From the IMG/VR virus record IMGVR_UViG_3300030098_005649: a stretch of DNA of 64,000 nt. One strand, written 5' to 3'. How positions within the stretch are numbered: the first letter of the stretch is position 1; each line of letters begins with the position of its first letter. The translations under genes and the position numbers were made by a program. Under the pieces are notes generated by a model. The model was not told the origin of the DNA. It worked only from the letters and a program-made list of their open reading frames with translations, and did not search any database. Shown here one piece after another: positions 44,656 through 56,080 of this stretch. This DNA comes from a virus. Taxonomy: Duplodnaviria > Caudoviricetes.

Positions 44656-44823
44656 TCGTTTGAGATCTGACCGTCATATATATTAAGGATGGTCAAACAA
44701 AATAGGTTATACGAAAAGTTTTTTCGATTAATAATATTTTCCGTGATATATATTATTACAAATCAGGTTACTACTTGATTGGTAATTAACAATTAAACAA
44801 TAACACTAAATTAGGAGTAAATA

Positions 44824-45570
44824 ATGGACATTGATGCAGTTAGAAAAAGATTGAATCAACTTCAAACAACAAACACTCGGACTTCCAACCTTTGGAAACC
44901 AAGTCCTGGTAAACAGGTTATCCGAGTAATTCCTTACAAACACAATAAAGACATTCCTTTTATAGAATTGTTCTTTCACTATGATTTAGGTGGAAAGACT
45001 TATCTTTCTCCTATCACTTATGGTCGTCCTGACCCGATTGAAGAGTTTGCAAGTAAACTAAAACAATCAGGTAGTCGTGATGATTTTCGTCTTGGTCGTA
45101 AGTTAGAAGCTAAGATGAGAACATTTGCACCAGTAATTGTTCGTGGTGAAGAGAATGAGGGTGTTCGCTTTTGGGGATTCGGTAAAACAGTATATCAAGA
45201 ATTACTTTCAGTAATTGCCGATCCTGATTATGGTGATATTACAGATCCAGTAAATGGTCGTGATATTTCTGTAGAGTTCCTAACGGCTGAGGAAACAGGT
45301 GCTAGTTATCCAAAAACTAACATCAGAGTCAAACCAAATCAGACCGCCATCACAGAAGATGCTCAAAAACTTGAGAGTCTTTTGGAGAATCAATCAGACT
45401 TACGAGAGATTTATACAGAACTTTCGTATGATGAATTGACAGATGTATTGAACCAATGGTTACAAGGTACTGAAGAAGAAGAAGCTGAAGAGAAGAAGTC
45501 TCCAGCTTTAGACACTGCAACTTCTAATGTAAATGTAGAAGATGCATTTGATGACCTTTTCAATAAGTAA
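44824..45570 (+). CDS. Single-stranded DNA-binding protein (T4 gp32-like)
   Basis: LWKPSPGKQVIRVIPY, DPIEEF, FWGFGKTVYQEL, DITDPVNGRD and an acidic C-terminal tail ending EDAFDDLFNK. Confidence 0.85.
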   Translation: MDIDAVRKRLNQLQTTNTRTSNLWKPSPGKQVIRVIPYKHNKDIPFIELFFHYDLGGKTYLSPITYGRPDPIEEFASKLKQSGSRDDFRLGRKLEAKMRTFAPVIVRGEENEGVRFWGFGKTVYQELLSVIADPDYGDITDPVNGRDISVEFLTAEETGASYPKTNIRVKPNQTAITEDAQKLESLLENQSDLREIYTELSYDELTDVLNQWLQGTEEEEAEEKKSPALDTATSNVNVEDAFDDLFNK

Positions 45571-49360: not shown

Positions 49361-51370
49361 ATGAGTAAATTTCAGTTATCAGATAATTTTATAAATAAGT
49401 ACAAGAGGAAAAAAGCTCCTTTTGGTTTTAATGGATTAGGTGAGTTGGTTTATATGAGAACCTACTCAAGAATCAAGGACAATGGCAAAAACGAAAGATG
49501 GTGGGAAACAGTACAACGAGTTGTAGAGGGAACTTACAACATGCAAATGAATTGGATTGAATCACATCAATTAGGGTGGAATCCCTGGCAAGCACAGAGG
49601 TCAGCACAAGATATGTATGACCGTATTTTCAATATGAAGTTCTTACCGCCAGGTCGTGGTTTGTGGGCAATGGGAACACCAATCACAGAGGAAAAAGGAC
49701 TATATGCCGCCCTAAATAATTGTGCCTTTGTATCAACAAAAACAATAAAAGAAGACTATGCCAAACCTTTTTGTTTCCTTATGGATGCAAGTATGTTGGG
49801 TGTTGGTGTTGGGTTCGATACAAAAGGTGCTGGAGAGATAGTAGTCAAAGGTATAAACAAGGATAGAGATGTTCAGACATTTCAAATACCTGATACTCGT
49901 GAGGGTTGGGTTGAGTCACTAAAGTTACTATTAGAAAGTTACTTTCACGGACAGGCACCAATGGAGTTTGACTACTCAATAATAAGACCAGCTGGTGTAC
50001 CAATAAAAGGTTTTGGTGGAGTTAGTTCAGGACCAGAACCACTAAAAGAAGTACACGAAGATATAAGAAAAGTACTTGAAAAGAATAGTGGAGAACCAAT
50101 CTCAATCACTACAATTGTTGATATTATGAATCTTATCGGTAAATGTGTAGTGGCTGGTAATGTTAGAAGAACGGCTGAGATTGTATTTGGAGACCCACAT
50201 TCAGAAGAATATTTAGATTTGAAAAATTATAAAGTAAATCCACATAGAGAACAATATGGATGGACAAGTAATAACTCCATATTTGCAGAGTTGGGTATGG
50301 ATTATACAGAAGCTGCAAAAAGAATTGCAGACAATGGAGAACCAGGATTTGCTTGGTTAGAAAATATGAGACAATATTCTCGTATGAAAAATGGTGGAGA
50401 CAATAAAGACCATAGAGTAATGGGTGGTAATCCTTGTTTGGAACAATCATTAGAATCATACGAATTGTGTTGTTTGGTAGAAACATTTCCTGAAAATCAC
50501 GATGATTTTGAGGATTATGCGAGAACACTAAAATATGCATACTTGTATGCAAAAACAGTAACACTTGGTAGAACTCATTGGAGTGATACAAATCGAGTTA
50601 TGTTGAGAAATAGGAGAATCGGTTGTAGTGTAAGTGGTGTTGCTCAGTTTATAACAAATAGAGGTTTAGATGAACTGAAAGAATGGTTGAATGGTGGATT
50701 TGATGTTATCCAACAATGGGATAAACAATATTCAGATTGGATGGCAGTTCCACGATCTATCAAGACCACATCGGTCAAACCATCAGGAACAGTTTCATTA
50801 TTAGCAGGAGCGACTCCAGGATTACATTACCCTGAGAGTCGTTTTTACATTAGGAGAATAAGAGTTTCAAAACATTCGGAACTATTAGAACCTATGAAAA
50901 AAGCAGGTTACAAAGTAGAACCAGCATTTGGTTCAGAAGACACAACTATGGTTGTCGAAGTACCAGTAGATGTCGGTGAGGGGATTAGAACAGCGGCTGA
51001 ACTTTCGATTTGGGAACAATTCAGTTTAGCCGCTTTTCTTCAACGACATTGGGCAGACAACCAAGTAAGTTGTACGGTTACATTCAATCCAGAAACGGAG
51101 ACAGACCAAATTGCTCCGTGTTTGAATTATTATCAGTATCACCTAAAGGGTATTAGTTTATTACCAAGACACGATTATGGGGCTTATCCTCAAATGCCAT
51201 ATGAAGGTATTGATGAGAAAACCTATGAGAAAGAAGTAAAGAAATTAGGTAAACTATCCTTTGGTGTGATAAAGAATGAAGAGGCAGAAGTAGATAAATT
51301 TTGTAACAACGATAGTTGTGAAATCATTCCAACCACTGGTGATAATGATGACCAAGATTATGCAAATTAG
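49361..51370 (+). CDS. nrdJ: Class II (adenosylcobalamin-dependent) monomeric ribonucleotide reductase
   Basis: MRTYSR, FLPPGRGLW, ALNNC, GNVRRTAEI, catalytic GGNPCLEQ, ELCCLVE and TSVKPSGTVSLLAG. No nrdB-like gene is adjacent. Confidence 0.92.
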   Translation: MSKFQLSDNFINKYKRKKAPFGFNGLGELVYMRTYSRIKDNGKNERWWETVQRVVEGTYNMQMNWIESHQLGWNPWQAQRSAQDMYDRIFNMKFLPPGRGLWAMGTPITEEKGLYAALNNCAFVSTKTIKEDYAKPFCFLMDASMLGVGVGFDTKGAGEIVVKGINKDRDVQTFQIPDTREGWVESLKLLLESYFHGQAPMEFDYSIIRPAGVPIKGFGGVSSGPEPLKEVHEDIRKVLEKNSGEPISITTIVDIMNLIGKCVVAGNVRRTAEIVFGDPHSEEYLDLKNYKVNPHREQYGWTSNNSIFAELGMDYTEAAKRIADNGEPGFAWLENMRQYSRMKNGGDNKDHRVMGGNPCLEQSLESYELCCLVETFPENHDDFEDYARTLKYAYLYAKTVTLGRTHWSDTNRVMLRNRRIGCSVSGVAQFITNRGLDELKEWLNGGFDVIQQWDKQYSDWMAVPRSIKTTSVKPSGTVSLLAGATPGLHYPESRFYIRRIRVSKHSELLEPMKKAGYKVEPAFGSEDTTMVVEVPVDVGEGIRTAAELSIWEQFSLAAFLQRHWADNQVSCTVTFNPETETDQIAPCLNYYQYHLKGISLLPRHDYGAYPQMPYEGIDEKTYEKEVKKLGKLSFGVIKNEEAEVDKFCNNDSCEIIPTTGDNDDQDYAN

Positions 51371-51386
51371 ACTTACAAAACAGCGG

Positions 51387-51420
51387 ACAGGCAGACGACA
51401 CACCTGTAAAAAAATGTGTC
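51387..51420 (+). ncRNA. Predicted H-type pseudoknot in the leader of the TonB-dependent receptor gene
   Basis: S1 ACAGG(51387-91)/CCUGU(51403-07), S2 GACACA(51397-402)/UGUGUC(51415-20), L1 CAGAC, L2 0 nt, L3 A7. All 11 pairs are Watson-Crick. Confidence 0.6.
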
Positions 51421-51450
51421 AATTTCAAAACAACAATAGGAGTGATTACT

Positions 51451-54204
51451 ATGAACTATCGTAATCTAATCTCTATTCTTGCAATATCAGTAGGACTTGT
51501 TTATGGACAAGCCGTTACTGGTTTTGTTGGGGATGGAGAAAAACCACTTGTTGGAGCGAATGTAATCGTTGAGGGTACAGAACTCGGTGGAGTAACAGAC
51601 GAAAGTGGAAAATTCGTCATCGAAACTGGATCTGGTACTTTTGACATTACTGCTTCATACATCGGTTATGTTGCCAAAACTCAATCAGTTGAGATTGGTG
51701 ATATAGTTGGAAGTGTCAGTTTTGACTTAGAAACTGATGTGGTTGCTCTCACAGCACTTGAAGTTCTTGCTTCTCGTGCAGATGAGACTACACCTGTTGC
51801 TTATACTACGGTTAGTAAAGAAGAAATGGAAGTTCGTCTTGGTTCACAAGATATTCCAATGATTCTAAACACAACACCAAGTGTATATGCAACTCAACAA
51901 GGTGGAGGTGCGGGAGATGCCCGTATTAATGTTCGTGGATTCAACCAACGAAATGTCGCAGTAATGATAAACGGAGTTCCCCAAAACGATATGGAGAACG
52001 GATGGGTTTATTGGTCTAATTGGGATGGAGTAGGAGATGCTACTTCCTCAATTCAGATGCAACGAGGTCTATCAGCCGTGAATCTTGCTACACCATCAAT
52101 TGGTGGAACGATGAACATTATCACCGACCCAGCTGCTCACGAAAAAGGTGGGAAGTTCAAACAAGAAGTCGGTGAGGGTGGATTTCTAAAATCTACCTTG
52201 AATTATAACTCAGGTCTAATAAATGATAAGTTGGCAATTAGTGGTACAATTGTTCGTAAAACTGGTGACGGTTTGATTGACGGTACTTGGACAGATGCTT
52301 GGGCTTATTATTTAGGTACATCATATGCTGTATCAGATAAACAGAGATTCGAGTTATATGCAATCGGTGCTCCACAAAGACACGGACAGAACCTATACAA
52401 ACAGAACATAGCTACTTATTCTCAAGAGTTGGCTGGAAGTATCGATGGATACAATGATTCAGCTTATGTTGAGGGAGAGAAGTTTGAAACTGAAGCTGGT
52501 AGGTTCTTCAATCAGAATTGGGCACCTGTAGACCCATCATACAAAGGCCAACAATATTGGTATATGTATGGTGCGAGAACTACAGACAGGTACAATCCAA
52601 ATCTGTTGAATGAAAGAGAAAACTTCTTTCATAAACCACTTGTAAATCTAAACCATTTCTATGATATAAATGATGATATGAGATTATCTTCAGTATTATA
52701 TTGGAGTGGTGGTTCAGGTGGTGGTACTGGTACTTATGGAAGTGTCAGTAGAAAACCTGCAGTCGAAGGAGAACCTTGGTATGCAAGTTCACCTTGGATG
52801 TGGGATTGGAATGCTGAGATTGAACAGAACTCATCTAATGTAGATTCTGCTTGGTCTGATGTTGAAAATCGTTCAACAGGTATTCTTCGTAACTCAATCA
52901 ATCGTCAGAACACATATGGTTTGATTTCTAAATTGAACTATGATGTATCAGACGAACTTGAAGTTCAAGTTGGTATCGATTGGAGAACTGCTGGTATTGA
53001 ACACGCTCGTGAGGTTCGTGATTTATTAGGTGGAGACTACTATGTAAATTTCGCCGATGATAACGCACCTGATGGTAAAGTAGTTCGTTTAGGTGATATT
53101 ATCGCCTATCACAACGAAACAACTGTAAATTGGTTTGGTGCTTTCTTACAAGGTAGTTATACTGGTGAGAAACTAAACCTTTATGGTATGGGTGGTGTAT
53201 CCACTATTGGATATACTTACGAAGACCATTTTGCTCTAAATGTAGATGAAGATGGAAACAAAATTGATAATTTTGTTGAAGCTCCATCTATCACAACCTT
53301 TCAAGTAAAGGGTGGTGCTAGATATAATCTTGACGACAGATTATCAGCATTTGCTAATTTAGGGTATGTTCAAAAACCACCAATCTTAGATAATGTGATT
53401 GACTATGATGGAAATGTATCTACAAATCCAGATAATGAGAAATTCATATCTAATGAAATCGGTGGAGAATACAGAAGTGATAAAGTTGCTATCAAGGGTA
53501 GTTATTATAACACTCAATGGAAAGATAGAAACCTTACAAAATCTGTAACAACAGGACAAGGTGATTCAGGTGACACAGACATCATTTATCTAACTGGTGT
53601 AGACCAAAGTCATAGTGGTTTCGAGATAGAGTCTAAAGTTGCTCTACACGAAATGGTAGACTTAGATGTCGCTGTTAGTATCGGAGATTGGTACTTTGAC
53701 GGAGATGCTAAAGGTGACTATACTTCAATGGAATACAATGAAAATAATGAGATTATCGGACAAACATCTACTGAGTATGAATATGCTCTCGCTAATCTAA
53801 AAGTTGGTGATATGCCACAAACATCTTATGTTGGTGGACTTACAGTAAAACCAATTAAAGGTTTGAGTGTACAAGGTCTTTATAGATGGTACGACAATCA
53901 CTATGCTGATTGGAGTCCTGATTCTCGTGAGGTTGAAGGTGATGCAGATAGAGAACAAGTATGGAAAACTCCATCTTATGGTAAGTTAGACTTACATCTA
54001 TCTTATAAATTACCTGAAATTGCAGGTCTTGATATGACTATTCACGGTCATTTATTCAATGCACTTGATGAGGTATTTATTCAAGATGCAGTAGACAATA
54101 GTAAATACAATGGGTATGGTGATAAACTTCACTTAGCTCATAATGCCGAAGTATTTCTTGGAACACCAAGAAGTTTCAACTTAGGACTATCTGTCAATTT
54201 CTAA
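51451..54204 (+). CDS. TonB-dependent outer-membrane receptor with N-terminal carboxypeptidase-regulatory-like domain
   Basis: Signal peptide, PLVGANVIVEGT...TDESGKF...ASYIGY, plug domain (RINVRGF, VMINGVPQND), a long beta-barrel and a terminal Phe (LSVNF). ATG 51451 has SD AGGAG. Confidence 0.93.
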   Translation: MNYRNLISILAISVGLVYGQAVTGFVGDGEKPLVGANVIVEGTELGGVTDESGKFVIETGSGTFDITASYIGYVAKTQSVEIGDIVGSVSFDLETDVVALTALEVLASRADETTPVAYTTVSKEEMEVRLGSQDIPMILNTTPSVYATQQGGGAGDARINVRGFNQRNVAVMINGVPQNDMENGWVYWSNWDGVGDATSSIQMQRGLSAVNLATPSIGGTMNIITDPAAHEKGGKFKQEVGEGGFLKSTLNYNSGLINDKLAISGTIVRKTGDGLIDGTWTDAWAYYLGTSYAVSDKQRFELYAIGAPQRHGQNLYKQNIATYSQELAGSIDGYNDSAYVEGEKFETEAGRFFNQNWAPVDPSYKGQQYWYMYGARTTDRYNPNLLNERENFFHKPLVNLNHFYDINDDMRLSSVLYWSGGSGGGTGTYGSVSRKPAVEGEPWYASSPWMWDWNAEIEQNSSNVDSAWSDVENRSTGILRNSINRQNTYGLISKLNYDVSDELEVQVGIDWRTAGIEHAREVRDLLGGDYYVNFADDNAPDGKVVRLGDIIAYHNETTVNWFGAFLQGSYTGEKLNLYGMGGVSTIGYTYEDHFALNVDEDGNKIDNFVEAPSITTFQVKGGARYNLDDRLSAFANLGYVQKPPILDNVIDYDGNVSTNPDNEKFISNEIGGEYRSDKVAIKGSYYNTQWKDRNLTKSVTTGQGDSGDTDIIYLTGVDQSHSGFEIESKVALHEMVDLDVAVSIGDWYFDGDAKGDYTSMEYNENNEIIGQTSTEYEYALANLKVGDMPQTSYVGGLTVKPIKGLSVQGLYRWYDNHYADWSPDSREVEGDADREQVWKTPSYGKLDLHLSYKLPEIAGLDMTIHGHLFNALDEVFIQDAVDNSKYNGYGDKLHLAHNAEVFLGTPRSFNLGLSVNF

Positions 54205-54256: not shown

Positions 54257-54757
54257 TTGAAAAAGTTATTATTTTTGTTATTATTATTTTGTTGTGATGA
54301 TAGAGTAGAAGACCCGACTAAATCTAATATTATCGTGACGATGTTACGAGTAGATAGAATTGAAATACTTGATTGGTTATGGATAACACCTGCTCCAATT
54401 TGGGGTCACTTAGAATCAGAAGATAGTATACCTCTTGAAAGAATGGTTGTACATTGGTGGAGTAATCTGTATTGGGACGAGGATGATTCAAGTGGTCATT
54501 ATAGATTACTACCCAACAGAAGAAACAAAGCAATATGGTATGATAACTTTGGAAACAGAGATACTATGGATGTAGATGTAGACACACTAAGATGGACTAC
54601 AGACAGATACTCTGAAGTAGATAGTTTAGGATATTTTTTTAATACACTAAGACCTACAAGAGTAATGCAAAATAAGGGTAGTGGTAGTTGGATGAAATTG
54701 TATTGGAGTATTGAAAATACACTAATAGATTCACAAGAAATATTTCTAATGGATTGA
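54257..54757 (+). CDS. Hypothetical secreted or lipoprotein
   Basis: TTG start. MKKLLFLLLLFCCDD resembles a signal peptide ending in Cys. Confidence 0.5.
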   Translation: MKKLLFLLLLFCCDDRVEDPTKSNIIVTMLRVDRIEILDWLWITPAPIWGHLESEDSIPLERMVVHWWSNLYWDEDDSSGHYRLLPNRRNKAIWYDNFGNRDTMDVDVDTLRWTTDRYSEVDSLGYFFNTLRPTRVMQNKGSGSWMKLYWSIENTLIDSQEIFLMD

Positions 54758-54787
54758 AAAAAAAATAAAAAAAGTTGTAAAAAGTGC

Positions 54788-54816
54788 TTGTATTTGTCAT
54801 TTTTTCTTTGTAACTT
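54788..54816 (+). promoter_or_regulatory. Sigma70-like (early) promoter
   Basis: TTGTAT-N17-TAACTT in an intergenic gap. Confidence 0.5.
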
Positions 54817-54842
54817 ATGGTATGATAAATAAGGAAAAAACA

Positions 54843-55199
54843 ATGAATACAAGAAAACATCTAAAAGAAGGTACTTACACTTATTGGGTAAATAAAAGAA
54901 GTGGTACTATCCAGCATGTGGGAGTTGAATACAATAAGTATTTCAAGAACTTCAAATTGACTATGAGTACTGTAAATTTACCATACGAAAGAATGTATTT
55001 CACAAAAGGTAGTGATATGAATGGTGTGGATAGATTCTTGAAAAACTATGAGTTTATTTGTGAGAATCCAGACAATGATTTTTTTGTAAATGTCTTGGCT
55101 AACAAGAAACTAAAGAGTGAGTTTACTTGGGGTAGAAAAACCAATGGTAGACTTGGTATCACTAAAGATGAATATTTTTCAAAACTAAACATAAAATAA
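54843..55199 (+). CDS. Hypothetical protein
   Basis: The ORF track starts at 54822. ATG 54843 has AAGGA upstream. Confidence 0.6.
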   Translation: MNTRKHLKEGTYTYWVNKRSGTIQHVGVEYNKYFKNFKLTMSTVNLPYERMYFTKGSDMNGVDRFLKNYEFICENPDNDFFVNVLANKKLKSEFTWGRKTNGRLGITKDEYFSKLNIK

Positions 55200-55211
55200 A
55201 AGGAGTCTATT

Positions 55212-55331
55212 ATGTATAGAAGTGAATGTTGTGGTGGAATGGTCTATGATGACTATGACATCTGTTCAGATTGTTACGAACACTGCGAAGTGTGGTTTGA
55301 TGGTGATGAAGAAGACGAAGACGAATCGTAA
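55212..55331 (+). CDS. Tiny Cys-rich acidic protein (39 aa, absent from the ORF track)
   Basis: SD AGGAG at 55201. MYRSECCGGMVYDDYDICSDCYEHCEVWFDGDEEDEDES*. Confidence 0.65.
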   Translation: MYRSECCGGMVYDDYDICSDCYEHCEVWFDGDEEDEDES

Positions 55332-55425
55332 ATGTAAACAATGTAAAACAGAGTTAGATGGGATAATGATTTTTTATCCTGAACTCTGTTTATTTTGTGT
55401 TATAAAAAAAGAAAATAATGCTTGA
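55306..55425 (+). CDS. Possible tiny zinc-ribbon protein (39 aa)
   Basis: MKKTKTNRKCKQCKTELDGIMIFYPELCLFCVIKKENNA*, with two CxxC motifs. Confidence 0.4.
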   Translation: MKKTKTNRKCKQCKTELDGIMIFYPELCLFCVIKKENNA

Positions 55426-55451
55426 CACATATAGTAAAAGTTGTGTATATT
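55422..55451 (+). promoter_or_regulatory. Sigma70-like (early) promoter upstream of the nuclease-methyltransferase pair
   Basis: TTGACA-N18-TATATT with TG preceding the -10. Confidence 0.65.
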
Positions 55452-55483
55452 ATACTATGAATAATAAAGGAAAAACAAACAAA

Positions 55484-56080
55484 ATGAAGACAACAACTAA
55501 CAATCTAATAAACAATTTTTCTTATGAAGACTTGGCTCACGCTTTATATCTAAAAGGTGAGAGGGATGGTGTTCATAAAATTACAGACAAAACTCAATGG
55601 AGAGAGTTTGTTATCGCTGACAAATTAGGTCATAAGGCTTTTGATAAGATTTCTGCTGGTAAAGGTAGTGATAAATATGGTGCAGATGCTTATGAGGCTA
55701 ATGGACAAACTGCAGAATATAAGAGTAAGTCTATCAATGACAAAGAGGTTCGTAACCTTACTCGTCAAGTTAGAAACCATAATACAGGTTTGAGATTTTC
55801 AGCACTCAAAGTTCCTGGTGTTTACAATGGGGCATATACACAAGATGCAATTGATGCTTATTCTAAACATAATCACTATTTTGGTGTGTTTTGGAAAGAG
55901 AGATGTGTTTTGATTATCAAACCAACTACTGATTATGTTATCAGTACACTTACTGAAAACAACAACAATCGTAAAGATGGGGCGACAACAAACCTAAATA
56001 GTGTTGTTGTGAACTTAGACGATGTTTCTAATTATGAAATTGCTTACAAAGACAATGATTGGTTCGAGGAGAATGAATGA
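55484..56080 (+). CDS. Putative type II restriction endonuclease (PD-(D/E)xK, PvuII-like)
   Basis: GADAYEANGQTAEYKSKSIN parallels the PvuII catalytic segment GNDAVDNAGQEYELKSIN (recalled from memory). It overlaps the downstream methyltransferase start (ATGA). Confidence 0.55.
   Translation: MKTTTNNLINNFSYEDLAHALYLKGERDGVHKITDKTQWREFVIADKLGHKAFDKISAGKGSDKYGADAYEANGQTAEYKSKSINDKEVRNLTRQVRNHNTGLRFSALKVPGVYNGAYTQDAIDAYSKHNHYFGVFWKERCVLIIKPTTDYVISTLTENNNNRKDGATTNLNSVVVNLDDVSNYEIAYKDNDWFEENE

What the first reader, a model, noticed from the sequence alone, without database searches (positions are those of the whole stretch)
51371..51450. Perfect H-type pseudoknot in the nrdJ-TBDR spacer: candidate unknown riboswitch or operator
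Seen: in an 80-nt spacer, ACAGG pairs with CCUGU and GACACA pairs with UGUGUC. All 11 pairs are Watson-Crick, with L1=CAGAC, L2=0 and L3=A7, and the segment is GC-richer than its surroundings. It ends 17 nt before the AGGAG SD. Established: a 5-bp S1 with an A-rich L3 is the architecture of preQ1-I riboswitches, and the T2/T4 gene 32 operator is also a compact H-type pseudoknot. The loop does not match the preQ1 consensus I know, and the SD is not inside S2. Inference: a cis-regulatory RNA controlling a phage-borne nutrient transporter, possibly ligand-sensing or nuclease-blocking.
Basis: partly seen in the sequence, partly recalled or inferred. Interest (0 to 1): 0.65.

Follow-up and report, generated by a model that had tools for sequence, protein, structure and literature searches.

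The report
Pseudoknot leader of phage TonB receptor
A 34-base RNA pseudoknot just upstream of a nutrient-importer gene carried by abundant ocean phages is real, has been kept by selection in hundreds of phage genomes and matches no catalogued RNA family, so it is a new gene-control element whose mode of action is still open.

Summary
In detail: ACAGG/CCUGU and GACACA/UGUGUC interleave at 51387-51420, 17 nt before the AGGAG. On this sequence alone it is not beyond chance (3 such knots on the strand, 3.6 in shuffles). Comparison makes it real. Every relative of the phage TonB-receptor gene with upstream DNA carries the motif (77/77 and 76/76 loci). There is one copy per phage genome. It never occurs in another context, and the nearest other TonB-receptor homologues, some on cellular contigs, lack it. 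Among 76 distinct cores 97% of cells pair and 6 of 11 pairs show compensatory changes, with at least 3-19 independent switches per pair on the protein tree. The invariant bases cluster at the helix junction. Rfam 15 has no match, preQ1-I included.

The knot does not touch the SD. It is followed by a G-poor unstructured spacer, the SD, and a co-varying hairpin around the AUG. This layout parallels the T4 gene 32 leader. My best reading (about 40%) is a constitutively folded leader cap that stabilises and insulates the mRNA beside a ribosome standby platform. A new riboswitch (about 25%) or a protein operator (about 20%) remain open. An earlier report of this scan (e1-4702854) already mentioned this pseudoknot leader on another genome.

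The parts
49361..51370 (+). Upstream gene: class II (B12-dependent) ribonucleotide reductase, NrdJ-like. It is not part of the element. In other phages the upstream gene differs while the leader stays with the receptor gene.
   Evidence: Pfam RNR_Alpha, RNR-II_ins_dom and Ribonuc_red_lgC. Upstream flanks vary between loci.
51371..51386 (+). 16-nt linker after the nrdJ stop codon. It ends in GCGG (51383-51386), which is conserved in the majority clade. The window lineage lacks the UUCACAUAC box that 63% of leaders carry 0-22 nt before S1.
   Evidence: box in 133 of 212 distinct leaders. The linker leaves no room for a promoter, so the leader is read through from upstream, at least in this lineage (inference).
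51387..51391 (+). S1 5' strand, ACAGG.
   Evidence: Pairs with 51403-51407. Pairs 2 and 3 show C-G to U-A (10 of 76 distinct cores) and A-U to U-A (8 of 76) with no unpaired cell. The two G-C pairs are invariant and the outermost pair is loose.
51392..51396 (+). L1, CAGAC. The first two bases (CA) are invariant, the third is G in at least 90% of cores, and the last two vary.
   Evidence: Alignments A1 and A3.
51397..51402 (+). S2 5' strand, GACACA.
   Evidence: Pairs with 51415-51420. Pairs 1, 2 and 4 show compensatory changes (GC/AU; AU/GC/GU; AU 57 and GC 19). Pairs 3, 5 and 6 are invariant.
51403..51407 (+). S1 3' strand, CCUGU. It follows S2 5' directly (L2 = 0).
51408..51414 (+). L3, A7. 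The family consensus is two variable bases followed by AAAAA. The last A residues are invariant. Length is usually 7 nt, with a range of 4-9.
51415..51420 (+). S2 3' strand, UGUGUC. Together with the last A of L3 it spells an invariant AUG, which is not a conserved uORF start.
   Evidence: uORF frame and length are not conserved.
51421..51437 (+). Unstructured, G-poor spacer (17 nt here; 13-28 nt from the end of S2 to GGAG in the family; composition A 56%, U 22%, C 16%, G 6%). It often starts with UUAAC. It is a candidate ribosome standby or protein-spreading platform.
51438..51442 (+). Shine-Dalgarno sequence AGGAG, conserved in essentially all leaders.
51444..51466 (+). Hairpin of the translation-initiation region. 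GAUUAC (51444-51449) pairs with GUAAUC (51461-51466), with the AUG (51451-51453) in the loop. In other lineages the arms differ (ACGUUU/AAACGU, ACUUUU/AAAAGU, AGAUUAUGA/UCGUAAUCU) but a helix spanning the AUG remains.
   Evidence: (97% of 133 distinct regions have at least 4 pairs spanning the AUG, against 46% of shuffles), and 96 (native partners -4.16 against swapped -3.13 +/- 0.12 kcal/mol).
51451..54204 (+). The regulated gene: a 917-aa TonB-dependent receptor-like protein (CarboxypepD_reg domain, Plug and barrel).
   Evidence: Pfam, NCBIfam partial hits only, homologues.

Best explanation
Shown: 51387-51420 encodes a 34-nt H-type RNA pseudoknot in the sense-strand leader of the phage TonB-dependent receptor mRNA. 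It is under strong purifying and compensatory selection, present once per genome, and always attached to this gene. Inferred mechanism: it is a constitutively folded, junction-stabilised knot. The A-run of L3 probably lies in the minor groove of S1, and the invariant CA of L1 in the deep groove of S2. The knot forms the 5' border of a self-contained expression module. The module runs: knot, then a G-poor single-stranded spacer, then a strong SD, then an AUG inside a weak hairpin. As in the T4 gene 32 leader, the knot would cap the mRNA that remains after the polycistronic transcript is cut or decays from upstream. This would hinder 5'-end-dependent nuclease entry. It would also keep upstream coding RNA from pairing into the spacer, so the spacer stays free as a standby platform for 30S subunits entering the weakly structured start region. 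The result would be stable, high and context-independent expression of a gene cassette that sits behind different upstream genes in different phages.
For: The structure is real. 97.1% of 836 cells pair and 6 of 11 pairs show double changes. None of 500 shuffles reaches the covariation score, and slid controls reach 11-65% pairing. On a tree of 136 distinct receptor proteins the minimum number of switches per pair is 7, 3, 8, 19 and 13. Internal pairs show G.U but never A.C, which favours the + strand. Linkage: 77/77 and 76/76 homologous loci with upstream DNA carry it. There is one hit per genome in five 94-130 kb records and one in the window. Of 196 IMG/VR pattern hits, 178 have the receptor gene just downstream. 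Of the other 18, 12 end at a contig edge, 3 are deletion remnants of the receptor gene and 3 are chance hits. The metagenome scan shows the same pattern. The cassette sits behind different upstream genes. Module layout: the knot never overlaps the SD. The spacer is 6% G and unfolded. S1 starts 57-73 nt (median 63) before the AUG. In T4 gene 32 the pseudoknot lies 67 nt upstream, followed by an unstructured A+U-rich region over the RBS, with an RNase E cut at -71 and a very stable mRNA (PMC3014915, PMC535899). In the window lineage only 16 nt separate the nrdJ stop from S1, so the leader is internal to a longer transcript. The hairpin around the start co-varies. Invariant bases cluster at the S1/S2 junction, as expected for a tertiary core.
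Against: No direct data exist on RNA ends, half-life or translation. The only RNA data available were assembled contigs. A mere stabiliser or insulator might be expected to tolerate more sequence change than seen here, where 13 of 34 positions are invariant. That degree of identity also fits specific recognition by a ligand or a protein. Only this one gene in a genome of roughly 180 kb has the element. The host's RNase set is unknown. The triplex contacts are inferred from architecture, not modelled.
Confidence: 0.4

Rival explanations
1. It is a new riboswitch class. The pseudoknot would be a minimal aptamer that binds a small molecule related to what the receptor imports, or to NrdJ chemistry. 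Ligand-dependent folding would change translation or decay of the receptor mRNA.
For: It is a single-copy cis element in front of a transporter gene, the classic riboswitch setting. Its size and architecture are those of the smallest pseudoknot aptamers. Extreme conservation is concentrated at the helix junction and in L1 and L3, where such aptamers hold ligands. It matches no known family, so it would be new.
Against: No expression platform was found. S2 ends 13-28 nt before the SD, with an unstructured spacer of variable length between them. There is no terminator and no conserved alternative pairing (with manual checks). L2 = 0 leaves no gap at the junction. The motif is absent upstream of the closest other homologues, some of them on cellular contigs.
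Confidence: 0.25
2. It is a translational operator for a trans-acting RNA-binding protein. A phage protein (for example the gp32-type SSB encoded 6 kb upstream) or a host protein would nucleate on the knot and spread over the single-stranded spacer to cover the SD. This would time receptor synthesis with the replication module.
For: The layout is the same as the T4 and RB69 gene 32 operator: a 5' pseudoknot, then an unstructured A/U-rich region containing the RBS (PMC535899, PMC3014915). The phage is T4-like and encodes gp32 at 44824-45570. The receptor gene lies inside the replication gene cluster. The spacer often begins UUAAC, and the phage's own gene 32 leader holds UUAACAAUUAAACAAUAAC before its SD. 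The sequence invariance fits specific protein recognition.
Against: The gene 32 leaders of this phage group do not share this knot or any conserved knot. The spacer gives about 30 nt from S2 to the AUG, shorter than the more than 40 nt of T4. An exported outer-membrane protein cannot autoregulate, so a dedicated regulator would be needed for a single site. No candidate regulator was identified.
Confidence: 0.2
3. It is a signal for the upstream gene: a recoding stimulator (frameshift or readthrough), or a 3'-end protector of the nrdJ mRNA.
For: Compact knots with an A-rich L3 stimulate frameshifting in luteoviruses (recalled knowledge). The leader is retained next to nrdJ in three contigs that have lost the receptor gene.
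Against: The upstream gene and the distance from its stop codon vary widely, while linkage to the receptor start is constant. There is no slippery site or extended frame. The uORF and frame analysis shows no conserved reading frame through the knot.
Confidence: 0.04
4. It is not a functional RNA: the conservation reflects a DNA-level site (promoter or protein-binding site) or recent spread, and the knot is a coincidence.
For: On one sequence the knot is no rarer than in shuffles, and the nested fold is unremarkable.
Against: Interleaved compensatory changes in two helices cannot be explained by a DNA-binding site. Flanks are unalignable while the core is kept across receptor proteins down to about 61% identity. 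There are many independent double substitutions. Internal G.U pairs are tolerated but A.C pairs are not.
Confidence: 0.03

Closest known systems
Translational operator and leader of gene 32 mRNA in T4, T2 and RB69
   Same: Both are found in T4-type phages. Both have an H-type pseudoknot with coaxial stems about 60-70 nt upstream of the AUG. Both continue with an unstructured A/U-rich stretch containing UUAA-type words that runs into the SD and AUG. The T4 leader is also the stable 5' end left by RNase E processing of longer transcripts (PMC3014915, PMC535899).
   Different: The gene differs: an outer-membrane receptor, not the SSB. The sequence is unrelated. L1 is 5 nt here, against 1 nt in T2 as I recall. 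The spacer is shorter. The phage's own gene 32 leader lacks this knot. No binding or processing data exist.
preQ1-I riboswitch (Rfam RF00522)
   Same: It has a 5-bp first stem, an A-rich 3' loop, an H-type fold and a size of about 34 nt.
   Different: There is no covariance-model hit, even at E<=10 on a 51-nt slice. There is no L2 and hence no ligand-pairing C. L1 starts with CA. S2 is 6 bp. The SD lies outside S2. The gene context is a TonB receptor, not queuosine genes.
Luteovirus-type frameshifting pseudoknots (for example BWYV), recalled from memory
   Same: Both are compact knots with a G-rich junction end of S1, an L1 beginning with CA, and an A-rich L3 expected to form a minor-groove triplex. 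Near-total sequence constraint around the junction is typical of both.
   Different: This knot is intergenic and not downstream of a slippery site. S2 is 6 bp rather than 3. It occurs in a bacteriophage leader. The function cannot be recoding (and the variable upstream context).
Automated catalogue of 8,495 candidate structured RNAs from IMG/VR (PMC10690425)
   Same: It draws on the same data source and the same kind of object (short covarying intergenic motifs in phages, including leaders of gp32). This motif may be among the unnamed DNAVirus_N entries.
   Different: The paper's text mentions neither TonB receptors nor this motif. Its supplements are not held, so membership could not be checked.

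Membership tests
preQ1-I riboswitch (RF00522) | Scores against the Rfam covariance model | tested here: not met
   No hit at gathering threshold in the window. No hit at E<=10 on 311-nt and 51-nt slices of the window or on a divergent relative.
preQ1-I riboswitch (RF00522) | H-type fold with a 5-bp P1 and an A-rich 3' loop | tested here: met
   This is architecture only.
preQ1-I riboswitch (RF00522) | An L2 loop carrying the C that pairs with the ligand, and a short (3-4 bp) P2 whose 3' strand overlaps the SD (consensus recalled from memory) | tested here: not met
   L2 = 0. S2 is 6 bp, with covariation at three pairs. The SD starts 17 nt after S2.
preQ1-I riboswitch (RF00522) | Association with queuosine or preQ1 biosynthesis or transport genes | tested here: not met
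   It is always upstream of the TonB-receptor gene.
T4-type gene 32 translational operator | A 5' pseudoknot followed by an unstructured A/U-rich region that contains the RBS | tested here: met
   compared with PMC535899 and PMC3014915.
T4-type gene 32 translational operator | Lies in the leader of gene 32 (autogenous control) | tested here: not met
   gp32 is at 44824-45570. Its leader has no match to the model and no conserved knot.
T4-type gene 32 translational operator | Repeats of UUAAA or UAAA in the unstructured part | tested here: inconclusive
   UUAAC opens 65 of 180 distinct spacers and UAAC or AAAC words are common, but there is no regular repeat.
T4-type gene 32 translational operator | gp32 binding and repression; RNase E cut just 5' of the knot | not testable with these tools
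   Only assembled RNA contigs were available.
Any Rfam 15 family | Covariance-model hit | tested here: not met
-1 frameshift or readthrough stimulator | Fixed short distance downstream of a slippery site or stop codon, inside an extended reading frame | tested here: not met
   The upstream gene and the distance vary. No conserved frame runs through the knot.
Riboswitch (generic) | An expression platform: alternative pairing, a terminator, or SD/AUG sequestration coupled to the aptamer | tested here: not met
   No terminator and no conserved alternative helix were found. SD and AUG pairing probability is not above the composition control.
Riboswitch (generic) | Specific ligand binding | not testable with these tools
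   Needs in-line probing or ITC.

The most novel reading that the evidence does not exclude
The knot is a new, phage-only riboswitch class of minimal size. It would sense the cargo of the phage-borne TonB-dependent importer, or a metabolite tied to the neighbouring B12-dependent ribonucleotide reductase. It would act without sequestering the SD, for example by gating a ribosome standby site or nuclease access.
Probability: 0.22. Interest if true: 0.85.

Novelty: new member of a known kind. Interest (0 to 1): 0.6.

Why it matters
These phages are abundant in the ocean. The same leader turns up in hundreds of viral and metagenomic contigs and in metatranscriptome assemblies. They carry a host-type outer-membrane importer, so how the virus controls that gene bears on how infection rewires nutrient uptake. 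The element is a clean, small, richly sampled RNA fold with a conserved junction core. That makes it a good target for structure determination and ligand or protein screening. If it binds a metabolite, it would reveal what the importer carries and add a new minimal riboswitch class. If it is a gene-32-like operator or cap, it would be a second natural example of that design in T4-type phages, on an unrelated gene. According to the 2010 T4 review (PMC3014915), the gene 32 knot was then possibly the only viral pseudoknot used for autoregulation of translation.

Tried and rejected
(1) The genome-contig scan used a mistyped pattern, with six N where five were needed. So absence from bacterial genomes is NOT established. 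Only the leaders of eight of the closest non-phage-clade homologue loci were checked, and all were negative.
(2) Rfam at gathering and at E<=10 gave nothing relevant.
(3) The nested MFE and z-score of the spacer were uninformative.
(4) A uORF starting at the invariant AUG in S2 is rejected. Its frame relative to the receptor start is 0, 1 or 2 in 25, 34 and 45 cases. Its length runs from 2 codons to an in-frame fusion. The peptide is not conserved.
(5) Alternative pairing of the upstream UUCACAUAC box with the S2 3' strand is rejected. The box does not change when S2 switches to GCGUC, and it is absent from 37% of leaders.
(6) The box as a general phage promoter is not supported. It is not enriched in the window, and it abuts S1 directly in some loci.
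(7) RNA evidence: only assembled contigs were on offer. Four metatranscriptome runs (two studies) hold the receptor gene and its leader from about 51350-51395 onward, and none of nrdJ 50800-51310. Contigs of relatives run 38-79 nt upstream of the knot. I did not use them as evidence.
(8) SD or AUG sequestration by the hairpin at the start: pairing probabilities are not above a shuffled-CDS control. Only the helix spanning the AUG is supported.
(9) A shared knot in the phage's own gene 32 leader was not found.
(10) Complementarity between the knot and the phage ncRNA noted earlier in this genome was not found.
(11) Supplements of the IMG/VR structured-RNA catalogue are not held.
(12) NCBIfam gives no substrate class for the receptor.
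(13) blastn against deposited phage genomes gave no match.

Full report
WHAT IS THERE. The 80-nt spacer 51371-51450 lies between an NrdJ-like ribonucleotide reductase gene (49361-51370) and a 917-aa gene. That gene encodes a TonB-dependent-receptor-like protein (CarboxypepD_reg domain, Plug and barrel) starting at the ATG at 51451. S1 is ACAGG 51387-91 with CCUGU 51403-07. S2 is GACACA 51397-402 with UGUGUC 51415-20. L1 is CAGAC, L2 is 0 nt and L3 is A7. The AGGAG lies 17 nt after S2. The window is part of a large T4-like phage. It encodes gp32, a RecA/UvsX-like protein, a 5'-3' exonuclease, a DnaB-type helicase and a family B polymerase, all on the + strand.

IS IT MORE THAN CHANCE? Not on this sequence alone. 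Perfect knots of this size occur 3 times on the + strand and 5 times on the - strand, against 3.6 +/- 2.6 in dinucleotide shuffles. The nested fold of the spacer is unremarkable, with z = 0.18. The case rests on comparison.

COMPARATIVE EVIDENCE. A protein-guided search of IMG/VR found 328 relatives of the receptor gene, and 80 loci were fetched (75-99% identity). The motif is upstream in all 77 loci that have upstream DNA. A second search seeded with a divergent member (about 61% identity to the window's protein) gave 80 more loci. A covariance model built from the first alignment hit all 76 that have usable upstream DNA. Of 196 motif loci then held, 178 have the receptor gene directly downstream. 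Of the rest, 12 end at a contig edge, 3 are one lineage in which the receptor gene has been deleted, and 3 are chance hits without pairing. The deleted lineage keeps the leader and about 25 codons. A metagenome scan gave the same picture: 80 hits with the gene, 14 true motifs at contig ends and 26 chance hits. The model finds one copy in the window and one in each of five 94-130 kb phage records. The flanks of the 34-nt core cannot be aligned between lineages, and the upstream gene is not always nrdJ. The next-closest receptor homologues (41-54% identity, seven proteins on eight loci), several in clearly cellular contexts, have no such leader.

COVARIATION. Among 76 distinct cores, 97.1% of pair cells are standard pairs and 6 of 11 pairs show changes on both sides. 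In S1 these are pair 2 (C-G 66, U-A 10) and pair 3 (A-U 68, U-A 8), plus the loose terminal pair. In S2 they are pair 1 (G-C 69, A-U 3), pair 2 (A-U 60, G-C 10, G-U 6) and pair 4 (A-U 57, G-C 19). The four internal covarying pairs have no unpaired cell. No shuffle out of 500 reaches the observed covariation score or paired fraction, and sliding the partner strand gives 11-65% pairing (the first alignment agrees). On a maximum-likelihood tree of 136 distinct receptor N-terminal halves, parsimony needs at least 7, 3, 8, 19 and 13 state switches at these pairs. Recombination between leader and gene could inflate those numbers. Even so, either many double substitutions or many exchanges have all preserved pairing. 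Internal pairs tolerate G.U but never show A.C, which fits an RNA of the + (mRNA) strand. The pattern used for part of the collection did not require complementarity at the covarying positions. The first 80 and the last 80 loci were collected by protein similarity alone.

CONSERVATION PATTERN. The following are invariant or nearly so: the two junction-proximal G-C pairs of S1, the two junction-proximal pairs of S2 plus its third pair, the first bases of L1 (C, A, mostly G) and the last five A of L3. The distal pairs, the end of L1 and the start of L3 vary. In an H-type knot these conserved parts all meet at the S1/S2 junction. I infer a tertiary core, with L3 adenines in the S1 minor groove and L1 in the S2 deep groove, as in other compact knots. 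This is inference from architecture, not a model.

REST OF THE LEADER. S2 is followed by a spacer of 13-28 nt (to GGAG). Its composition is 56% A, 22% U, 16% C and only 6% G, it does not fold, and it often opens with UUAAC. A canonical SD follows, and then a hairpin whose arms lie between the SD and the AUG and in codons 4-7. The hairpin arms differ between lineages but stay complementary: GAUUAC/GUAAUC in the window, and elsewhere ACGUUU/AAACGU, ACUUUU/AAAAGU and AGAUUAUGA/UCGUAAUCU. In 97% of 133 distinct start regions at least 4 pairs span the AUG, against 46% after shuffling. Native spacer-codon partners fold better than swapped partners, at -4.16 against -3.13 +/- 0.12 kcal/mol. Sequestration of the SD or AUG itself is not above the composition control. 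S1 starts 57-73 nt (median 63) before the AUG. In 63% of distinct leaders a box UUCACAUAC lies 0-22 nt before S1. The window lineage lacks it, and there S1 starts only 16 nt after the nrdJ stop, so the leader must be read through from upstream.

WHAT IT IS NOT. No Rfam 15 family matches, at gathering or at E<=10 on short slices of the window and of a divergent relative. So it is not a member of preQ1-I or of any other catalogued pseudoknot riboswitch. The invariant AUG formed by L3 and S2 does not open a conserved uORF. The upstream box does not covary with S2. The variable upstream context excludes a recoding signal for the upstream gene. A DNA-level site cannot explain interleaved compensatory changes.

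HOW IT MOST LIKELY WORKS. The knot is a self-contained domain that never touches the SD, and I found no conserved alternative structure. This argues against a classical riboswitch platform, although ligand binding cannot be excluded without experiments. The layout is the one described for the T4, T2 and RB69 gene 32 leader. There the pseudoknot lies 67 nt upstream of the AUG, followed by an unstructured A+U-rich region with UUAA(A) words over the RBS. All transcripts are cut by RNase E at -71, the upstream part is degraded, and the mRNA is the most stable of T4 (PMC3014915, PMC535899). I therefore favour, at about 40%, a constitutively folded cap and insulator. It would protect the receptor mRNA and keep the G-poor spacer free as a ribosome standby platform in front of a weakly structured start. 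That would suit a cassette that has moved behind different genes. A new riboswitch (about 25%) and a protein operator, gp32-like or other (about 20%), remain serious rivals. The very high sequence identity at the junction fits specific recognition as well as it fits a tight tertiary fold. The phage's own gene 32 leader has the A/U-rich UUAAC-type stretch but not this knot.

RNA DATA. Only assembled contigs of metatranscriptomes were available. They contain the leader and the receptor gene, and in relatives they run 38-79 nt upstream of the knot. They cannot show ends or levels, so I draw no conclusion from them.

PRIOR NOTES AND LITERATURE. An earlier report of this scan on another genome (e1-4702854) already stated that the phage receptor gene has 'its own conserved RNA pseudoknot leader'. 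My tests agree with that and add the covariation statistics, the exclusivity, the junction-centred conservation and the rest of the leader anatomy. Other notes place the phage among T4-like ocean phages with Marinimicrobia as probable host; I did not test that. A published automated catalogue of 8,495 candidate structured RNAs from IMG/VR may contain this motif. Its text does not mention it and its supplements were not available. I found no paper describing it.

LIMITS. The covariance model encodes only S2. Function is inferred throughout.

VERDICT. It is a real, new, well-sampled cis-acting RNA pseudoknot family specific to a phage-borne TonB-dependent receptor gene. The mechanism is unresolved and testable. 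Interest is 0.6.

Noticed in passing
window 51444-51466 (and homologous loci): A hairpin spans the receptor start codon. Its 5' arm lies between the SD and the AUG, and its 3' arm lies in codons 4-7 (the CGUAAUCU words). The arms change together between lineages, in one case at the cost of an Arg-to-Ser change (ACUUUU/AAAAGU in L024).
   Followed up: partly
L004, L035, L044, L073 and others, 0-22 nt upstream of S1; absent at window 51371-51386: A conserved box UUCACAUAC followed by an A-run is present in 133 of 212 distinct leaders. It travels with the receptor cassette whatever the upstream gene is. It is not enriched elsewhere in the window, does not covary with the knot, and has no known role.
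   Followed up: partly
L250:5100-5320, also L260 and L274: One phage lineage has lost the receptor gene but keeps the leader, the SD and about 25 codons between nrdJ and the next genes. The closing pair of S2 is broken there (A.A).
   Followed up: partly
window 44656-44823: The leader of the phage's gp32 gene has a hairpin about 40-63 nt upstream of the AUG and a G-poor stretch, UUAACAAUUAAACAAUAAC, before its SD. This resembles the T4 gene 32 operator region, but no conserved pseudoknot appears across four relatives.
   Followed up: partly
L499 (G002:C1:47600-49000, reverse strand, about 540-830): The phage ncRNA reported earlier in this genome has a hairpin whose loop reads UACCUCCUUUA. That matches the 3' end of 16S rRNA (anti-SD-like) rather than a ribosome-binding site, so it could pair with SD sequences in general. 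It has no complementarity to the pseudoknot.
   Followed up: partly
window 54257-56080: Three ORFs after the receptor gene (166, 125 and 220 aa) have no Pfam or NCBIfam match. Whether they belong to the receptor cassette was not examined.
   Followed up: no
window 50800-52300 in RNA-library contigs: In four marine metatranscriptome assemblies, contigs cover the receptor gene and leader but none of the last 500 nt of nrdJ. Contigs cannot show transcript ends, so this is only a lead for raw-read mapping.
   Followed up: partly
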